From: an uncultured archaeon
GTDB lineage: Archaea; Asgardarchaeota; Jordiarchaeia; Jordiarchaeales; Jordiarchaeaceae
NCBI GenBank assembly: GCA_964510585.1
Contig: CAZECW010000097.1
Location: 1-18,638 of the forward strand
DNA length: 18,638 bases
Direction: 5' to 3'
The notes below the pieces were generated by a model. That model was not told where the DNA came from and did not search any database. It worked only from the letters and a program-made list of their open reading frames with translations. A program made the position numbers and the translations under genes. Below, one piece after another: positions 2,128 to 17,360 of the stretch. Each line of letters starts with the position of its first letter. The stretch's first letter is position 1.

Positions 2128-2405
2128 GGCAAGAAAGCCCACCCTTATTTGGAAGCTGGGATAAGTCAAGAATTTGACAAGAAAAAAAATGGAAGCCGTA
2201 AATTAGAAGGTGCGAAAAGGAGTAATAAGAGGAGTGGCAAGCCAAAATTTCCTGACAGATAGCGATATGTGAGCAGGACATATTATTTTCGCTTGTGCAA
2301 AATTACTCCCGAATCTATGACATGGTAAACCAAGAGCGGAGGAAAACCTTCTTCTCAGGCTACTTGGAAAAACAATATATACTCCGCATAACTTGTCGCA
2401 TATGA
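2128..2405 (+). pseudogene. Probable IS605-family remnant: end motif (2128-2167) plus degraded tnpB N-terminus
   Basis: GGCAAGAAAGCCC...GGGATAAGTC resembles the 86-126 end (GGCGAGAAAGCCC...GGGATGAATC). Frame 2256-2405 reads EQDILFSLVQNYSRIYDMVNQERRKTFF, like archaeal TnpB N-termini as I recall them. Stops flank it and there is no RuvC part. Confidence 0.4.
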
Positions 2406-2481
2406 TATTAAAGACTATTTTAAGGAGCACTTTTCAAAAAGGTTGGTGCAATTTCATTTTCAGGTATGGGTAGTGTGTGCA

Positions 2482-3598
2482 ATGGAAGATTTTCTTAAAA
2501 CCATTAAGGATCCGAAATTTGCCAGTAAGATATCTGAAACCATAAAAGGTTTGGCTCCAGAGAGAAGGGTGAAGTTTGTTCACATATGCGGGACAGCCTA
2601 GAACCCTTTTCTGGACCCCGAAACATGAACAAACTATAAGTAAACACGGTTTGAGAACCCTTCTTCCAAACAATGTAGAAGTGATAGCTGGGCCAGGGTG
2701 TCCGGTCTGCGTTACACCCTCTCTAGTTCTTGATGAAGCAATTGAACTTGCACGAAGAGGGGTGATTATTACCGCTTTTGGCGACCTTATGATGGTTCCT
2801 GCAACTGAGACTTCTCTCTATGGTTTAAAGGCGGAGGGAGCTGACGTTAGGATCGTGTATGGACCGCACGATGCTGTGGAAATCGCTGAGAGGAACCCCC
2901 ACAGGGATGTGGTCTTCTGTGCGGTGGGATTTGAAACTACTGCTCCTGGGGTAGCGTCTGAAATACTAAGAGGTGTTCCCAAAAATTTCAGCATCATAAG
3001 TGCACATAGACTCATTCCACCAGCAATGGAGCTCCTTATGGGGGTAGGCGACCTCCAAATAGATGGATTCATCTGTCCAGGGCACGTGGCAACCATAATT
3101 GGAATGAAACCCTTCAGGCGGTTCTCGGAAGCCTACCGTATGCCGACCATCGTATCTGGCTTCGAGCCAAACGACGTTCTCCTCTCCCTAGCAATGCTCC
3201 TCAAACAGTTAAGGGATGGGGAGCCCAAGTGTGAAAACGAGTACATCCGAACAGTGAAGGAGGAGGGTAACATCAGAGCTCAAAAGATAATCGAAGAAGT
3301 TTTTGATGTCACTACTGCCCACTGGCGTGGAATAGGGAGGGTACCCGAATCGGGCTACGTGCTTAAAGAAGAATTCGAAGAATATGACGCAGAAAAAAGG
3401 TATGGACTCCAGATAAAAAAATCTGTGGACATTCACCCCGGTTGCAACTGCCACCTAGTTATGATTGGAAAAATATACCCCCCAGAATGTAAACTATTCG
3501 GAACTGTGTGCAGACCAGAAAAACCGTACGGACCATGTATGGTTTCAAGCGAGGGAACATGCAGAATATATTACAAGTATGGGTCTCACCTCAAATAA
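2482..3598 (+). CDS. hypD: [NiFe]-hydrogenase maturation protein HypD, join(2482..2594,2623..3598), 362 aa after removal of a 28-nt intron
   Basis: ATG 2482 frame gives MEDFLK...KFVHICGT, then TAG at 2599. The downstream frame gives HEQTISKHGLRTLLP, GPGCPVC, GFETT, PGHVA and the C-terminal Cys cluster (CNC...C...C...GPCMVSSEGTC). 113+976=1089 nt = 363 codons. The ORF-track start at 2576 is an artefact lacking the CG of the motif. Confidence 0.93.
2595..2622 (+). other. 28-nt bulge-helix-bulge intron in hypD pre-mRNA
   Basis: Central 4-bp helix CGGG(2589-92):CCCG(2617-20); 3-nt bulges AC^A (2593-95) and AA^A (2621-23); outer helix UAUG(2585-88):CAUG(2624-27); inner stem GCCUAGAA(2596-2603):UUCUGGAC(2609-16) with one mismatch and one GU pair. 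Cuts after the 2nd bulge nt give GGG AC|A CAT GAA. Confidence 0.88.
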
Positions 3599-3789: not shown

Positions 3790-3829
3790 TTTTCCTATTT
3801 TTTATCTTTAATAGGAAAATGTTTATAAG
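3790..3829 (+). promoter_or_regulatory. 10-bp inverted repeat abutting the BRE/TATA of the TA operon
   Basis: TTTTCCTATT(3790-99)-N10-AATAGGAAAA(3810-19) followed by TTTATAAG (3822-29), about 35 nt before ATG 3864. Confidence 0.55.
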
Positions 3830-3863
3830 TAGTACTCGTACCCTTTTATGTTGGGTGCTTTTT

Positions 3864-4091
3864 ATGCGAAGTACTGTGAAGGTTACAAGAAGGGGTCAAA
3901 CCACAATTCCCAAAGAGTTTAGGGAAAAATTCGGAATTAAAGAAGGGGACGAGTTAGTGGTTGAGTGTACCAAAGAGGGTTTACTGTTTAGAGTTGTTCC
4001 TAGGCTCGAAGAAATGGCCGGCAAATACTCGAAGTTTGGCAATGTGGAGGAGATAAAAAAAGAAATAGAAAAACAGAGAGAGGAATATTAG
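3864..4091 (+). CDS. AbrB/MazE/SpoVT-family antitoxin (start ATG 3864 preferred over 3819)
   Basis: MRSTVKVTRRGQTTIPKEFREKFGIKEGDEL is the AbrB-fold signature; ends 1 nt before the PIN gene. Confidence 0.9.
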   Translation: MRSTVKVTRRGQTTIPKEFREKFGIKEGDELVVECTKEGLLFRVVPRLEEMAGKYSKFGNVEEIKKEIEKQREEY

Positions 4092-4092
4092 C

Positions 4093-4491
4093 TTGAATGA
4101 AGTATTAGACAGCCGGTTTTTTGTTGAACATTTTTACTCCTCCGAAGAAGAAATAAAACACAAAACAACGAAGAAACTGAAGGAACTCATCAGGCGTAAT
4201 GAAGGTCTACTTCCCACCGTGGTCATTGTTGAGGTCTTCCAGATAGTATGCGAAAAAGTGGGAAGGGACGAGGCAGAAGCCTGTTACCTTTCCCTCATTA
4301 GGAGTGGGCTGAGAATTCAGGGTCTTGATCAAAATATTTCCAGACAAGCAGGTTTACTTAAATGCCGATACAGAAACATACCAATTGGAGACTGCATAAT
4401 TGCCGCCACAGCGATAATTAATCAAGCAAAGGTACTTTCCGATGATACCCACTTTGACGAGATAAAAGAAGTAAAACGCACATGGATTTGA
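4093..4491 (+). CDS. vapC: PIN-domain VapC toxin
   Basis: VLDS, VIVEV, IGDCIIAATA, VLSDDTHFD acidic PIN motifs; TTG start coupled to the antitoxin. Confidence 0.9.
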   Translation: MNEVLDSRFFVEHFYSSEEEIKHKTTKKLKELIRRNEGLLPTVVIVEVFQIVCEKVGRDEAEACYLSLIRSGLRIQGLDQNISRQAGLLKCRYRNIPIGDCIIAATAIINQAKVLSDDTHFDEIKEVKRTWI

Positions 4492-10594: not shown

Positions 10595-10685
10595 ACTAAT
10601 CTATATCATTCGAACGTCCTCCTCCAAAAGTTTAAAAAAAGTCAATCTTTAATCGTTTCATCAAAATGGGCTGATGTGTGGTTTC

Positions 10686-11174
10686 ATGATTAAACTGGTT
10701 ATTTTTGATGCTGATGACACTCTTTGGACCATAGATAGAGGATTTGCAAGTCTTCTAAAACCTCCCCTAAAAAGAACGGGGTTAAACTCACTTGAGGACA
10801 CTGAGGGTAAAAAGTTGCGACTTTTTGAGGGAGTAAGAGAGCTACTAAACTTCTTGAGGGAGAAGGGTATACTTCTCTCCATTGCTAGTTCAAACCAGTA
10901 TAACCCTAACATGGTTGAGGAGTGTCTAAAAACACTGGAACTGGACTTCTTCGTCTATCCCCAAGTGAATTATAGAGACAAGGGCGAGAACGTTAAAAAC
11001 CTTTTAAACACCATCTATGAGAACCACGGAGAAAAAATCAATTACGACGAAATTATTTTCGTGGATGACAGCGAAGCACACATTTTTAATGTGAAAAACC
11101 TCTGCCCAGGAATCAAAGTTCTACATTTAGGTTCAGACATCTCAAGTGTTACCGAAATTAAAAATTACCTTTAA
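10686..11174 (+). CDS. HAD-superfamily (IIIC) magnesium-dependent phosphatase-1-like protein, copy A (alternative start 10674)
   Basis: VIFDADDTLW, SIAS, DKG, IFVDD motifs. Confidence 0.85.
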   Translation: MIKLVIFDADDTLWTIDRGFASLLKPPLKRTGLNSLEDTEGKKLRLFEGVRELLNFLREKGILLSIASSNQYNPNMVEECLKTLELDFFVYPQVNYRDKGENVKNLLNTIYENHGEKINYDEIIFVDDSEAHIFNVKNLCPGIKVLHLGSDISSVTEIKNYL

Positions 11175-11660: not shown

Positions 11661-11927
11661 AAACCACCCAAACTCTCAAAACCACCAAATTCTATCCACA
11701 ATTCTCCCAGAGGCAAACTAACCACAAAAACGCCCCGTCCAATTTAAAATTATTCCTAGAAGACTTTAGAGCCCTCTTGAGTCTCCCAAAACTACAATAA
11801 CTAGATCCACCAACTTATGGGGAGGGTTATACTACTTCTAGCTGTCTTGCTATTTCCAAAAAGAGATAAAAATATGGTTATCTTCACTATACTACGATTT
11901 TTATAAAAAGGATGCAGAGTGGTTGCA

Positions 11928-12419
11928 ATGATTAAACTCGTGATTTTTGATGCTGATGAGACCTTGTGGGCGGCTCACGGGTACTGGGCCAGTCTACTTG
12001 TACCTCCACTAAAGAAGGTTAGCGATAGTGAAATAAGGGATTCTGAGGGGAAAAGCATCCATCTTTTCGATGGCGTAAGGCAAATACTGGAAACCCTCAA
12101 GAATAGAGGCATACTGATTTCGCTTGTCAGTATGAACGATCGGGAGCCGAACAGAGTCGCTGAGTGTTTGGAACTTTTTGGGTTAAGCCACTATTTTACT
12201 TATCCTCAAGTTAACTGGGAGGATAAGGGCCAAAACATTCTGAGAATTATAGAGCTCTTACGAAAAAATGATGGAAAAGTAATAAAGTGTGAGGAGATAC
12301 TCTTTGTAGATGACCACCTATCCAATATTGGTAAGGCCATAAAAGCTTGCCCAGGAATAAAAGCCCTCCATATTGGTACCGATATATCCCGAGTCACCGA
12401 AATAATTAACTACATATAA
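11928..12419 (+). CDS. HAD-superfamily (IIIC) magnesium-dependent phosphatase-1-like protein, copy B (alternative start 11919)
   Basis: VIFDADETLW, SLVS, DKG, LFVDD; collinear paralog of copy A. Confidence 0.85.
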   Translation: MIKLVIFDADETLWAAHGYWASLLVPPLKKVSDSEIRDSEGKSIHLFDGVRQILETLKNRGILISLVSMNDREPNRVAECLELFGLSHYFTYPQVNWEDKGQNILRIIELLRKNDGKVIKCEEILFVDDHLSNIGKAIKACPGIKALHIGTDISRVTEIINYI

Positions 12420-15041: not shown

Positions 15042-16484
15042 TTGAGTTCAATAGTTGAGCAGCTTCACCCCCTCTACAATGCCAGGACAACTGTCATGAT
15101 TGGGCTGTCAAAAAGACTTATGAGCGTTGGCAGCATAGTCGCCCAAAATATAATTGATGGGGGCTACACTGGAAAACTTTATGCCGTGAACCCCCACTCA
15201 GAAAAAGTCTACCATGACATAAAGGCTTACCCCAAATTAAGGGATATACCTGAAGAGGTTGATTTAGCTGTTATAGTGACGCCCGCACAATTTGTACCCG
15301 AAGTAATGCAGGACTGCGTCGACAATAATGTTAAGACCTGTATCCTGATTACTGCAGGATTCTCTGAAGTGAGGACACCTGAAGGAAAAAAACTCGAGGA
15401 AGAAATAGTGAGAATAGCCAGAAGGGGCAAGCTGCGCTTCACGGGGGGAAACTGCAACGGAGTAAGCAGCATTTCGGTAAGTATGCACGCCCTCCTCTCC
15501 CCCATAAGGCCAAACTTTGGAAATGTAGGGATAATCACTCAAGGGGGCTCACCAGGAGTTGCCATGATGGGCTGGACAAAAAAATACAGAATTGGAGTGA
15601 GCAGATACACAAACGCTGGAAACGAAGCAGATGTCAAGATACCTGAACTACTTGAATATTACACCCAGGATCCCCAAACCAAGGTCATAATGATGTATCT
15701 GGAGGGCATCAAAGACGGGCGGAGATTTATGGATTCGGCCAAAACAGCCACAAGAAAAAAACCATTACTCCTTTACAAGTCGGGGACAAGCGAATTGGGC
15801 AAGAAGGCAGCTATGGCACACGTGGGCGCTCTTGCAGGGTCAAATGAAATATGTGAAGCTGTTTTCCGCCAGACAGGCATAATTCAAGCGAAAAGCATTG
15901 ACCAAATGGTGGGAATAGCTGCAGCCTTCAGCACACAGCTCCTACCCAAGGGGAGAAAAGTAGGTATACTCACAATAGGGGGAGGATGGGGTGTAGTTAC
16001 CAGCGATTATCTGGGAAAAGCGGGAATAGATGTTCCTCCCCTCCTCGAAGAAGAAGTTCAGTACTTGGACCAGTATTTACCCCCACACTGGAGTAGGGGA
16101 AACCCCATCGACACCACTGATGGAGCCTTTGATTCCAAGGTTCTTAGCGAAATCATGGAAACCCTCCTCAAAAAAGAAAATATAGACGGCGCAATACTAA
16201 TCGGGCCCGGCATGAGAGAAGCCTTCGGTAAGGTTCACTATCTCCCCGAAATAGGCGAGTTGGCATCTCAAATGGAGATTCAACTAGCAAAAGACTTAGA
16301 AAAACTTCTAGACAAATACAAGAAACCCATAATAGCAATAAAAATATACGCTCCAGAAGGTAGCCCTGCAGTCGAGGAACTAAAGCAAAGGGGAATCCCC
16401 GTCTATGAGACTCCACAAGACGGTGTAGCTGCCTATGAAGCTCTAATAAAATACTACGAGTACCAAAAAGGTAACCTTAAGTAG
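15042..16484 (+). CDS. NDP-forming acyl-CoA synthetase (acetate-CoA ligase-like) alpha subunit
   Basis: CoA-binding domain (YAVNP, VDLAVIV, ITAGFSE, GNCNG), GNEADV, YLEGIKDGRRF, AHVGALAG (phospho-His), NPIDTT; no ATP-grasp domain. Confidence 0.88.
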   Translation: MSSIVEQLHPLYNARTTVMIGLSKRLMSVGSIVAQNIIDGGYTGKLYAVNPHSEKVYHDIKAYPKLRDIPEEVDLAVIVTPAQFVPEVMQDCVDNNVKTCILITAGFSEVRTPEGKKLEEEIVRIARRGKLRFTGGNCNGVSSISVSMHALLSPIRPNFGNVGIITQGGSPGVAMMGWTKKYRIGVSRYTNAGNEADVKIPELLEYYTQDPQTKVIMMYLEGIKDGRRFMDSAKTATRKKPLLLYKSGTSELGKKAAMAHVGALAGSNEICEAVFRQTGIIQAKSIDQMVGIAAAFSTQLLPKGRKVGILTIGGGWGVVTSDYLGKAGIDVPPLLEEEVQYLDQYLPPHWSRGNPIDTTDGAFDSKVLSEIMETLLKKENIDGAILIGPGMREAFGKVHYLPEIGELASQMEIQLAKDLEKLLDKYKKPIIAIKIYAPEGSPAVEELKQRGIPVYETPQDGVAAYEALIKYYEYQKGNLK

Positions 16485-17360
16485 AATGATCGGAACTGCA
16501 AAGAGCCGGATGAACCCTTGAGTACTTGTCTAGGTAAACAATTTCTTCCAATTTCTTCCTAGGTGTTTTGGGCGGAGTTCTAGCAGGGTGGCCGAGAGCA
16601 ATTATGGAAACCAGTCTAACACCCTCGGGAATTTCAAGAATTTTTTTAATCCTCTCCTCGGCAAACATGAATCCCGCAGTCCAACAGGCCGCCAACCCCT
16701 TCGAAACCGCCGACAATAAAAAGTTTTCAACCGCAGCACCTACACTTAAAATAAACCAGATAGAAATAATTTCCCTGTACCTATCATACTTACCCACAAA
16801 AGGTTTAAAGAGAGCCTCTGGATCCCTCATACAAACTGCTACCAATACAGGGGCGCTGACAAGAGGATAGTATCCCGCGCCCTTAATGAGTGCCTGCACA
16901 TTAACCTGAAAACCCACCGCCCTACTCACCATCGGAACCAAAAAATCTTGCACAAACCCTTTTAATTCCTCGTCCTCAACACCCGCCTTAAGCGTCTCAA
17001 TAATCTGATTTTTAACCGATATTTCGCAGATTCTGCGAAGCTATTTGGGCGATTGTGATTTTTCCGTGTGGTTTTGGGTGTATGGTTGCGCTTTTCTATC
17101 AGCCCCCACCCTCATTTTCTCAAAAACTGGAATGATGGTGATAAACGCTTTGCAACTCCACTAAAGAATCCCTAAATCTGCGAAAAATGGGTTTTAACAC
17201 TTGGATCCCTAATTACGATAAACTCCCAGGGCTGAGCATTCTCAGCTGAGGGAGCCTTTCTAGCCATGTCTAAAAGTTGAAAAATATCTTGGTCAGAAAC
17301 ATCTTCACCTCTAAACTTCCTAATACTCTGCCTAGACTCAATAGCCTCAAACAAATCCAT
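16477..17360 (-). pseudogene. Nitroreductase-family gene interrupted by a 146-164 nt insertion (pseudogene or spliced gene)
   Basis: 5' part 17360-17178 MDLFEAIESRQSIRKF...APSAENAQPWEFIVIRD ends in TAG 17174. The 3' frame opens at 17040 (LRRICEISVKNQ...) and runs to SVGAAVENFLLSA..GL..CW and LGHP...PRK. Removing 146 nt gives a 245-aa ORF. Confidence 0.85.
17022..17185 (-). mobile_element. Hairpin-forming insertion bounded by an 11-bp inverted repeat
   Basis: TTTCGCAGATT at both ends in inverted orientation (17022-32 and 17175-85); internal arms pair by eye; no ORF. Confidence 0.5.

What the first reader, a model, noticed from the sequence alone, without database searches (positions are those of the whole stretch)
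2585..2627. Canonical bulge-helix-bulge intron inside the catalytic motif of the protein-coding gene hypD
Seen: hypD starts at ATG 2482, reads ...KFVHICGT, hits TAG at 2599 and resumes in another frame as HEQTISKHG. The extra 28 nt fold with their flanks into a strict BHB: 4 G-C central pairs (CGGG:CCCG), 3-nt bulges ACA and AAA, an outer exon-exon helix and an inner 7-bp stem with a 5-nt loop. Cutting after the second nucleotide of each bulge removes exactly 2595-2622 and yields TGC GGG ACA CAT GAA (CGTHE) in a 362-aa ORF. Established: this is the substrate geometry of the archaeal tRNA splicing endonuclease (EndA, ligation by RtcB); the CGxH cysteine is a conserved functional HypD residue; the well-known archaeal mRNA intron is the one in crenarchaeal cbf5. 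Inference: this is a spliced mRNA intron in a gene where I know of none. Frame, motif and cut geometry agreeing independently is hard to explain by chance or by assembly error.
Basis: partly seen in the sequence, partly recalled or inferred. Interest (0 to 1): 0.96.

Follow-up and report, generated by a model that had tools for sequence, protein, structure and literature searches.

The report
tRNA-type intron splitting Asgard hypD
The hydrogenase-maturation gene hypD of this hot-spring Asgard archaeon (Jordarchaeia/Freyarchaeia) is interrupted, inside its catalytic Cys-Gly-Thr-His-Glu motif, by a 28-base intron of the kind normally cut out of tRNAs, and the same intron sits at the same spot in every sequenced genome of the order, so these relatives of eukaryotes very probably splice messenger RNAs with their tRNA-splicing enzymes.

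Summary
hypD reads M...HICGT from 2482, hits TAG at 2599, and resumes as HEQTISKHG at 2624. [quoted passage not shown] Removing 2595-2622 gives a 362-aa HypD with CGTHE, the motif every uninterrupted homolog examined (about 50) carries.

The insert is not an error or a pseudogene:
- All 11 genomes of the order have an intron at this site (28 nt in this genus, 16-17 nt in the sister family). A genome of another Asgard family has a 24-nt one.
- Inner hairpins differ in sequence and length, but the 4-bp helix, both bulges and the cut register are kept.
- Both exons are under strong purifying selection.
- The exon codons that pair with the intron are frozen as TGC GGG in 12 of 12 intron-bearing genes, against 2 of 35 intronless ones.

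The genome encodes a two-subunit EndA and RtcB, three [NiFe]-hydrogenase large subunits, HypC and only this hypD. I also verified BHB introns in rtcB, ahcY and cbf5 of the same genome. Sister-family rtcB lacks its intron and reads exactly the junction the cut rule predicts.

No clean spliced RNA read was obtained. No paper on this was found. Earlier scan notes list similar introns elsewhere in this genome.

The parts
2482..2594 (+). hypD exon 1. It has 37 codons plus the first two bases (AC) of the Thr codon and ends ...KFVHICG-T(AC).
   Evidence: The exon is conserved in 11 genomes. Pairwise dN/dS is 0.08-0.5 across order genomes and 0.57 against G016 (other family), on very few sites.
2595..2622 (+). 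28-nt BHB intron with TAG at 2599-2601 in the exon-1 frame. The equivalent excision 2596-2623 gives the same product.
2623..3598 (+). hypD exon 2. It starts with the third base of the Thr codon, followed by HEQTISKHG... (324 aa) and a stop. It carries the GPGCPVC, GFETT and PGHV motifs and the C-terminal Cys cluster.
   Evidence: PF01924, E = 1e-132, profile positions 29-351. dN/dS is 0.03-0.05.
2585..2588 (+). Outer (exon-exon) helix, 5' strand UAUG. It pairs with 2624-2627.
   Evidence: Two pairs are invariant in all 12 genes. The third is A-U, G.U, G-C or unpaired.
2589..2592 (+). Central 4-bp helix, exon strand CGGG. It is the C of the Cys codon plus the GGG Gly codon.
   Evidence: 100% of cells paired, with only G-C to G.U changes. 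TGC GGG is found in 12/12 intron-bearing genes against 2/35 intronless ones.
2593..2595 (+). 5' bulge ACA. The predicted cut lies between 2594 and 2595.
2596..2616 (+). Inner hairpin of the intron: 8 stacked positions with one C.A mismatch and a loop CCCUU.
   Evidence: The mismatch is repaired as C-G in G001 and as U-A in G003.
2617..2620 (+). Central helix, intron strand CCCG.
   Evidence: It reads CUCG or CCUG in three relatives, which are wobble pairs.
2621..2623 (+). 3' bulge AAA. The predicted cut lies between 2622 and 2623. Base 2623 becomes the wobble base of the Thr codon.
   Evidence: this base is A, G or U among relatives, and the codon is always Thr.
2624..2627 (+). Outer helix, 3' strand CAUG (the His codon plus the G of Glu).

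Best explanation
Bases 2595-2622 are a bulge-helix-bulge intron in the hypD pre-mRNA.

Proposed mechanism:
1. After transcription, the exon bases CGGG (from the Cys and Gly codons) pair with the intron's 3' end CCCG. This presents two 3-nt bulges four base pairs apart, flanked by a short exon-exon helix and the intron's own hairpin.
2. The tRNA-splicing endonuclease of this organism cuts after the second base of each bulge, at 2594|2595 and 2622|2623. The enzyme is a catalytic subunit plus a His-less paralog, i.e. the (alpha-beta)2 type.
3. RtcB joins the exons. The mRNA then encodes a 362-aa HypD with an intact CGTHE motif.
4. The 28-nt intron is released, probably as a circle.

What is shown: the structure, its conservation, the exact register, selection on the exons, and the presence of the enzymes.

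What is inferred: that cleavage and ligation happen in vivo, and which enzymes do it.

The intron was present in the ancestor of the order (Jordarchaeales in the record titles). I take it to be a tolerated passenger rather than a regulator. It is one of several such introns in mRNAs of a lineage already known for intron-laden tRNA genes. A coupling of HypD output to splicing capacity cannot be excluded.
For: 1. Geometry and register. The strict BHB is at the stated coordinates. Excision gives CGTHE, which is what all ~50 uninterrupted HypD genes examined read.

2. Distribution. In all 11 genomes of the order the HypD profile match starts at position 29. In the other ~45 Asgard genomes of the first search it starts at position 2-7. 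Introns are 28 nt in six genomes of the genus and 16-17 nt in five genomes of the sister family. G016, from another family, has a 24-nt insert with an in-frame TGA at the same site.

3. Structure is kept while sequence changes.
   - Within the genus 91.7% of cells are paired, against 19-51% when the partner is slid.
   - Central-helix changes are only G-C to G.U.
   - One inner pair is C.A, C-G or U-A.
   - The sister family has a different 3-bp mini-hairpin.

4. Synonymous sites are constrained by the RNA. TGC GGG occurs in 12/12 intron-bearing genes against 2/35 intronless ones, although synonymous sites are saturated between the two families (pS about 0.85). The base after the 3' cut varies freely (A, G or U), as a Thr wobble base should.

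5. The gene is alive and needed.
   - dN/dS is 0.03-0.05 in exon 2 and below 1 in exon 1.
   - It is the only hypD in the genome.
   - Three [NiFe] large-subunit genes and hypC are present.

6. Machinery. There are two EndA genes. One has the Tyr/His/Lys catalytic residues and is closest to PDB chains 3p1z_B and 3ajv_B. The other lacks the His. RtcB is present.

7. The cut rule is validated in this lineage. The rtcB of this genus carries a 30-nt BHB insert. The sister family's rtcB lacks it and reads LPD|AHQGYG, exactly the predicted junction. ahcY and cbf5 are split the same way.

8. Weak RNA hint. In a run labelled metatranscriptomic, a contig of a relative about 86% identical stops matching at 2595. 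It continues CATGA(A), which equals the first bases of exon 2, before running into the 5' end of rps8e.
Against: - No clean spliced junction was seen in RNA.
- The two runs labelled metatranscriptomic are flagged 'probably DNA'. One of their contigs spans the intron unspliced (2576-2896), and the other is a chimera.
- No public protein at 69% identity or more has a contiguous CGTHE. Such a protein could have come from an assembled spliced transcript.
- Within the genus there is too little variation for the covariation shuffle test to be significant (334 of 500 shuffles reach the observed value).
- The outer helix is only 2 bp in four relatives. The G016 version needs a G.A mismatch in the central helix to splice in frame.
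- rtcB, the presumed ligase gene, itself needs splicing in this genus.
Confidence: 0.88

Rival explanations
1. hypD is expressed without splicing as an N-terminally truncated protein that starts in or after the insert. This is how every public annotation calls it. Exon 1 would then be an unrelated small ORF or dead sequence.
For: All database proteins of the clade are 292-340 aa and begin inside or after the intron. The ORF listing gives a 340-aa ORF from a TTG at 2576.
Against: - The annotated starts are not conserved: TTG upstream in another frame, ATG in the intron, MRTLLP, VEVIAGPG, MIAGPG.
- A truncated protein lacks the Cys of CGxHE, which is invariant in the ~50 homologs. From established knowledge of HypD, that Cys is essential.
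- Exon 1 is conserved, ends exactly at CG-T(AC) in 12 genomes, and is under purifying selection.
- The BHB and the frozen TGC GGG codons have no explanation under this reading.
Confidence: 0.04
2. The ribosome handles the insert by translational recoding (frameshifting or a gene-60-like bypass), with no RNA cutting.
For: The insert is short, structured and carries a stop right after the take-off region. This superficially resembles phage T4 gene 60. Yokobori et al. note that the cbf5 cases were once mistaken for frameshifts (PMC2738675).
Against: - Insert lengths of 28, 17, 16 and 24 nt shift the frame by +1, +2, +1 and 0, so no single recoding rule fits.
- A bypass needs a landing codon that matches the take-off Thr codon. 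The triplet before exon 2 is AAA, AGA, AUA, AGG, AAG or AUU.
- What is conserved is the BHB, which is the endonuclease substrate.
Confidence: 0.03
3. hypD is a pseudogene across the order, or is expressed as two separate polypeptides that assemble.
For: There is an in-frame stop, and no spliced product was observed.
Against: - dN/dS is 0.03-0.05 over saturated synonymous divergence.
- It is the only hypD copy in a genome with three [NiFe] hydrogenase genes and hypC.
- The exon-1 ORF ends in non-conserved tails (A-stop, or ATGPEA-stop).
- Exon 2 has no conserved start.
Confidence: 0.03
4. The 28 nt are an assembly or sequencing artefact.
For: None found.
Against: The insert is present in 11 independently assembled genomes from several studies, including a closed 3.58-Mb chromosome. 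It is also in contigs of independent hot-spring DNA runs that span it without a gap.
Confidence: 0.01

Closest known systems
cbf5 pre-mRNA intron of Crenarchaeota (Desulfurococcales, Sulfolobales)
   Same: It is a short BHB-type intron inside a protein-coding gene. It is removed by the tRNA-splicing endonuclease and a ligase, it occurs in hosts with a hetero-oligomeric (alpha-beta)2 EndA, and it was inherited within a clade (PMC2738675; PMC10485636).
   Different: The gene (hypD) and the phylum (Asgardarchaeota, Jordarchaeia) are different. Here the motif is a strict hBHBh', whereas the cbf5 motif is described as relaxed. Splicing is experimentally shown for cbf5 and not for hypD. This genome's own cbf5 also carries a 31-nt intron, inside GHAGTLD|P. 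I did not compare its position with the crenarchaeal one.
BHB-dependent processing of HVO_1309 mRNA in Haloferax volcanii
   Same: It is an mRNA substrate of archaeal EndA whose spliced form is seen in RNA-seq (PMC10485636; PMC7714728).
   Different: The host is a euryarchaeon with a homodimeric EndA. I did not check where the cut lies relative to that gene's coding sequence. The hypD intron sits inside a catalytic motif and must be removed for function.
tRNA introns of Freyarchaeia and Atabeyarchaeia
   Same: One of the two lineages is the same, and the motif and the presumed enzymes are the same. 92-95% of tRNA genes carry introns, often at non-canonical sites (PMC11291895; bioRxiv 10.64898/2026.10.13.758758).
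   Different: Those are in tRNA genes. Neither paper reports introns in protein-coding genes, going by text searches for the terms.
Unconventional splicing of XBP1 and HAC1 mRNA in eukaryotes (IRE1 cut, RtcB or Trl1 ligation)
   Same: It works alike. A protein endonuclease cuts an RNA structure, and a tRNA ligase joins the mRNA exons. A very short intron is removed (26 nt in XBP1) and the reading frame changes. This comparison rests on my own knowledge.
   Different: The nuclease (IRE1) and the substrate (twin stem-loops, not a BHB) are different. That splicing is stress-regulated. No regulation is shown here.

Membership tests
Archaeal BHB (EndA-dependent) intron | Two 3-nt bulges on opposite strands separated by a 4-bp helix, in the tRNA-like orientation (5' exon strand of the helix, then the bulge, then the intron). 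| tested here: met
   The motif is CGGG/CCCG with bulges ACA and AAA. The same holds in 11 genomes. G016 has one G.A in the helix.
Archaeal BHB (EndA-dependent) intron | Flanking helices h (exon-exon) and h' (within the intron). | tested here: met
   The outer helix is 4 bp here and 2-4 bp in relatives. The inner helix is 7 pairs here and 3-9 pairs in relatives.
Archaeal BHB (EndA-dependent) intron | Cutting after the second base of each bulge yields the functional, homolog-like product. | tested here: met
   (CGTHE in all). The rule was checked on rtcB against intronless orthologs of the sister family.
Archaeal BHB (EndA-dependent) intron | The structure is kept in relatives while the sequence changes. 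| tested here: met
   The evidence is strong between the two families and weak within the genus, where the shuffle test is not significant.
Archaeal BHB (EndA-dependent) intron | The host encodes the splicing endonuclease and the RtcB ligase. | tested here: met
   catalytic EndA plus a His-less paralog; RtcB, itself interrupted by a BHB insert.
Archaeal BHB (EndA-dependent) intron | A spliced junction or a circular intron is present in RNA. | tested here: inconclusive
   There is one unspliced contig and one chimeric contig that breaks at the 5' splice site. The runs may be DNA.
Archaeal BHB (EndA-dependent) intron | Cleavage by purified EndA at the two bulges. | not testable with these tools
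   This needs a bench assay.
HypD ([NiFe]-hydrogenase maturation protein, PF01924) | Full-length match to the family profile. | tested here: met
   One search matches profile positions 29-351 in exon 2. Exon 1 aligns with the N-termini of homologs.
HypD ([NiFe]-hydrogenase maturation protein, PF01924) | The conserved motifs CGxH, GPGCPVC, GFETT and PxHVxxxxG, plus the C-terminal Cys cluster. | tested here: met
   CGTHE exists only after excision of the intron. The other motifs are in exon 2.

The most novel reading that the evidence does not exclude
In Jordarchaeia (Asgard archaea), BHB introns have spread from tRNA genes into many protein-coding genes. These include hypD, cbf5, ahcY and, in this genus, the ligase gene rtcB itself. 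EndA and RtcB would then act as an obligatory protein-only mRNA-splicing system in a close relative of eukaryotes, and current annotations of these genomes would systematically truncate or split such genes. hypD would be the oldest dated case so far, because its intron is order-wide and has shrunk to 16 nt in one family.
Probability: 0.7. Interest if true: 0.93.

Novelty: new member of a known kind. Interest (0 to 1): 0.82.

Why it matters
A 2023 review counts only two archaeal genes with EndA-dependent mRNA splicing, cbf5 and HVO_1309 (PMC10485636). A conserved intron inside the catalytic motif of a metabolic gene would extend that list to the archaeal phylum closest to eukaryotes, and rtcB, ahcY and cbf5 of the same genome are split the same way.

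- **Evolution.** It would show that an intron-rich lineage can let introns invade coding sequence without a spliceosome.
- **Dating.** It gives a datable series of gains: the hypD intron is order-wide, the rtcB intron is genus-only.
- **Open questions.** It asks how splicing competes with coupled translation, and how a ligase gene that needs ligation is bootstrapped.
- **Annotation.** Every public HypD of this clade is annotated without its essential cysteine. Metabolic reconstructions that rely on intact genes will miscount.

Tried and rejected
**RNA evidence.**
- No RNA holder is listed for this stretch.
- I laid the two runs labelled metatranscriptomic (flagged 'probably DNA') and two DNA runs. 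No joint across 2594/2623 was reported.
- One contig spans the intron. Another ends at 2595 in a chimera with rps8e.

**Genome-wide census of mRNA BHB introns by motif plus ORF restoration, with a mirror-geometry control.**
- There was no excess over the control (2442 against 2561 hits), even with helix-length and codon-usage filters.
- The motif carries too little information, and fusions of adjacent genes pass the ORF test.
- A Pfam check of my ten best hits showed the following: one real split (cbf5), one probable (an aconitase-family gene), five pairs of neighbouring genes and three unknowns.
- The number of mRNA introns in this genome is therefore not established here.

**Degenerate DNA pattern search for the hypD site over 400 Asgard genomes.** It was swamped by chance matches and added only the G016 case, which was already known.

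**Phylum-wide HypD profile search.** The row list was cut at 150 matches. I cannot say that no further Asgard lineage has the intron.

**Database search for a protein made from a spliced transcript.** None was found.

**Rfam and ARAGORN on the window.** Nothing was found.

**Readings considered and rejected.** These were an intein, a group I or II intron (the insert is far too short), a frameshift, a bypass, a pseudogene and an assembly error. See the rival explanations.

**The tool complex prediction and structure prediction** were not used, because no claim here depends on them.
Full report
**What is in the sequence**

The window carries a hypD gene on the + strand.
- From ATG 2482 it reads 38 residues ending ...KFVHICGT, then A and a TAG at 2599.
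- From 2624, in another frame, it reads HEQTISKHG... for 324 residues up to a stop at 3596-3598.
- Pfam HypD (PF01924) matches that second piece with E = 1e-132, but only from profile position 29 of 351. The N-terminal 28 profile positions are missing from it.

Between the two pieces lie 28 extra bases. Bases 2585-2627 can be drawn as a strict helix-bulge-helix-bulge-helix:
- outer helix 2585-2588 with 2624-2627;
- central helix CGGG (2589-2592) with CCCG (2617-2620);
- bulges ACA (2593-2595) and AAA (2621-2623);
- an inner hairpin 2596-2616 with seven pairs, one C.A mismatch and a five-base loop.

The orientation is that of tRNA introns. The 5' exon supplies one strand of the central helix, and the bulge with the 5' cut lies on the intron side of it.

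ViennaRNA finds the central helix, the 5' bulge and the hairpin in the minimum-energy fold (z = -3.66). The full BHB costs 1.5 kcal/mol more than the optimum, which prefers a longer alternative outer helix.

Cutting after the second base of each bulge removes 2595-2622. It gives TGC GGG ACA CAT GAA and a 362-aa protein.

**Which organism**

Close matches in named genome records are:
- 'Candidatus Jordarchaeia archaeon' QZM_A3 and RPF2;
- 'Candidatus Jordarchaeum madagascariense';
- 'Candidatus Freyarchaeota archaeon', including the closed chromosome CP147778.

DNA holders of the stretch are hot-spring metagenomes. The genome (G000) has 3.78 Mb in 217 contigs and is 96% complete. It is thus an Asgard archaeon of the class Jordarchaeia. 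In this lineage 92-95% of tRNA genes are already reported to carry introns, often at non-canonical positions (PMC11291895; see also bioRxiv 10.64898/2026.10.13.758758).

**Is the insert real and old?**

A profile search for HypD in 61 related genomes gave a clean split:
- In all 11 genomes of the same order the match starts at profile position 29. These are six genomes of this genus and five of a second family.
- In the ~45 other Asgard genomes it starts at position 2-7.

I fetched the ten relatives and read the site.
- Every one has an insert at the same codon: 28 nt in the genus, and 16 or 17 nt in the sister family.
- In every one, excision by the same rule gives H-[IV]-C-G-T-H-E-[QH]-T-[IV]-S (G006 reads V).
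- All the uninterrupted HypD genes examined (about 50, from Asgard, other archaea and bacteria) read CGTH at this place, and nearly all CGTHE.

One genome of another Asgard family (G016) has a 24-nt insert with an in-frame TGA at the identical position. Its central helix needs a G.A mismatch to keep the register.

In a HypD tree the order forms one clade (100/99). G016 sits next to it in an unresolved fork, so one origin is neither shown nor excluded.

The insert is in independent assemblies, including a closed genome, and in contigs of independent DNA runs. It is not an artefact.

**Does the RNA structure matter?**

Four lines of evidence say yes.

1. *Pairing within the genus.* 91.7% of pair cells are standard pairs, against 19-51% when the 3' partner is slid by one to three columns. 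The central helix changes only from G-C to G.U. One inner pair is C.A in three genomes, C-G in two and U-A in one. Variation is too low for the shuffle test to mean anything (334 of 500 shuffles).

2. *Difference between the families.* The inner hairpin is replaced altogether, by 3-bp stems with 3-4-base loops. The central helix, both bulges and the register stay.

3. *Frozen exon codons.* The exon side of the central helix is made of synonymous-site choices.
   - All 12 intron-bearing genes use TGC GGG for Cys-Gly. Only 2 of 35 intronless genes do.
   - This holds although synonymous sites between the two families are saturated (pS about 0.85).
   - By contrast, the base right after the 3' cut is A, G or U. 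That is as free as the wobble base of a Thr codon should be.

4. *Chance.* My lax BHB definition is met about 2.5e-4 times per given position and length in this genome. It is met separately by the long and the short forms.

**Is the gene alive?**

- Pairwise dN/dS is 0.03-0.05 for exon 2 and below 1 for the short exon 1.
- The genome has only this hypD, three [NiFe]-hydrogenase large-subunit genes and hypC.
- Exon 2 carries the GPGCPVC, GFETT and PGHV motifs and the C-terminal cysteines.
- The CGxHE motif exists only after excision.
- Public databases hold only N-terminally truncated versions of this clade's HypD (292-340 aa), with non-conserved starts. None has a contiguous CGTHE.

**Machinery**

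Two EndA genes are present.
- One has the Tyr, His and Lys of the active site. It is closest to PDB chains 3p1z_B, 3ajv_B, 2cv8_A and 2zyz_B. From memory, these are crenarchaeal EndA structures: catalytic subunits of heterotetramers, plus a related Sulfolobus enzyme.
- The other lacks the His.

This is the (alpha-beta)2 arrangement, which the literature links to broad substrate range and to cbf5 splicing (PMC5829648; PMC10485636).

RtcB is present, but its gene has an in-frame TGA.

**hypD is not alone**

Earlier notes of this scan (unchecked AI notes) listed BHB introns in other genes of this genome. I checked three genes myself; cbf5 came from my own scan rather than from those notes.

- *rtcB* (C58:3762-3791, 30 nt). 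It has CCCG/CGGG with bulges ACA and AAG. Excision gives LPD|AHQGYG.
- *ahcY* (C4:20568-20597, 30 nt). It has UGGG/CCCA with bulges AAA and AAU. Excision gives KWE|FDN.
- *cbf5* (C18:27688-27718, minus strand, 31 nt). It is split inside GHAGTLD|P. DKCLD and the first 16 TruB_N profile positions lie on one side, and the rest of TruB_N, TruB_C_2 and PUA on the other.

The rtcB case gives a natural control.
- All six genomes of the genus are interrupted.
- The four sister-family genomes in which rtcB was found carry an uninterrupted gene 27 nt shorter in match length.
- The two sister-family genes I read (G006, G009) say LPDAHQGYG at the site, exactly the junction the BHB rule predicts.

So the cut rule is validated in this lineage without appeal to memory. 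It also shows that introns were gained at different times: hypD before the order split, rtcB within the genus.

**RNA evidence**

This is the weak point.
- No RNA holder is on record.
- Two runs are labelled metatranscriptomic and flagged 'probably DNA'.
- One has a contig of a relative that spans the intron unspliced (2576-2896).
- The other has a 318-nt contig, about 86% identical, that matches 2337-2595. It then continues CATGAA followed by 25 bases identical to the start of rps8e on contig C60.
- The break is at the predicted 5' splice site, and the next five or six bases equal the start of exon 2. This is what a cDNA chimera built on a fragment of spliced hypD RNA would look like.

It is one contig of uncertain library type, and I count it only as a hint.

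**Rivals**

- *A truncated HypD.* It lacks the invariant Cys and has no conserved start.
- *Recoding.* It cannot explain insert lengths of 28, 17, 16 and 24 nt, and there is no landing codon.
- *A pseudogene.* This is contradicted by selection and by the need for HypD.
- *An artefact.* This is excluded by independent assemblies.

Together I give these about 0.1.

**Comparison with what is known**

The mechanism proposed is the known one for cbf5 in Crenarchaeota and for HVO_1309 in Haloferax. [quoted passage not shown]

Searches of the held library turned up nothing on a hypD intron or on Asgard mRNA introns. I searched hypD with intron, Freyarchaeia or Jordarchaeia with intron, Asgard with BHB, and Asgard with RtcB. 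The library is incomplete, so this is absence in what I could search.

I file the finding as a new member of a known kind: a BHB mRNA intron in a new gene and a new phylum. The wider reading is that coding genes of Jordarchaeia are commonly interrupted. It is supported by four verified genes, but my attempt at a census failed. Its extent is open.

**Verdict**

Confidence is 0.88 that this is an intron removed by EndA and RtcB. RNA-level proof is still outstanding.

Noticed in passing
G000 C58:3762-3791 (locus L099): rtcB, the presumed splicing ligase gene, carries a 30-nt BHB insert with an in-frame TGA. All six genomes of the genus are interrupted. The sister family's rtcB is uninterrupted in the four genomes where it was found, and the two I read say LPDAHQGYG at the site. 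The ligase mRNA would need ligation, which raises a bootstrapping question.
   Followed up: yes
G000 C4:20568-20597 (locus L100): ahcY (S-adenosylhomocysteine hydrolase) has a 30-nt BHB insert with a TAA. Excision gives KWE|FDN.
   Followed up: partly
G000 C18:27688-27718, minus strand (locus L103): cbf5 of this Asgard genome is split by a 31-nt BHB candidate inside GHAGTLD|P. The Pfam domains are divided across it. I did not check whether the site equals that of the crenarchaeal cbf5 intron.
   Followed up: partly
G000 C181:4156-4188, minus strand (locus L102): An aconitase-family gene has a 33-nt candidate intron with a 9-bp inner stem. Exon 1 (46 aa) has no Pfam hit of its own, so the split is probable but not proven.
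   Followed up: partly
window 16477-17360, minus strand: A nitroreductase gene is broken into at least three frames. The N-terminal part (MDLFEAIESRQSIRKF...) ends at a TAG near 17174, and the ORF 16477-16953 matches only profile positions 90-167. One possible 26-nt excision gives SQI|AFITIIPVFEK, but its helices are poor. A second in-frame TAG lies next to a 7-bp hairpin. The gene has either further relaxed introns or is a pseudogene.
   Followed up: partly
window 2337-2595 and G000 C60:29962-29986: A contig from a run labelled metatranscriptomic joins hypD exon 1 of a relative, plus CATGA(A), to the 5' end of the ribosomal protein S8e gene. The break lies at the predicted 5' splice site. It may be a cDNA chimera or a trans-ligation product. 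It remains unexplained.
   Followed up: partly
L020 (G016:C67), hypD: A genome of a different Asgard family has a 24-nt insert with a TGA at the identical hypD codon. It has a 7-bp inner stem, but its central helix needs a G.A mismatch to splice in frame. Shared ancestry versus a second gain is unresolved.
   Followed up: partly
public protein records P0003-P0011, P0017, P0019, P0025, P0026: All deposited HypD proteins of Jordarchaeales are N-terminally truncated (292-340 aa). They start at different places in or after the intron and so lack the CGxHE cysteine.
   Followed up: yes
window 3819-4491, plus strand: Directly downstream of hypD there is a MazE/AbrB-type antitoxin (90 aa) and a PIN-domain toxin (132 aa). 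This is a VapBC-like pair.
   Followed up: no
window 10674-11174 and 11919-12419, plus strand: Two 166-aa paralogs of the Acid_PPase/HAD phosphatase family lie about 750 nt apart.
   Followed up: no
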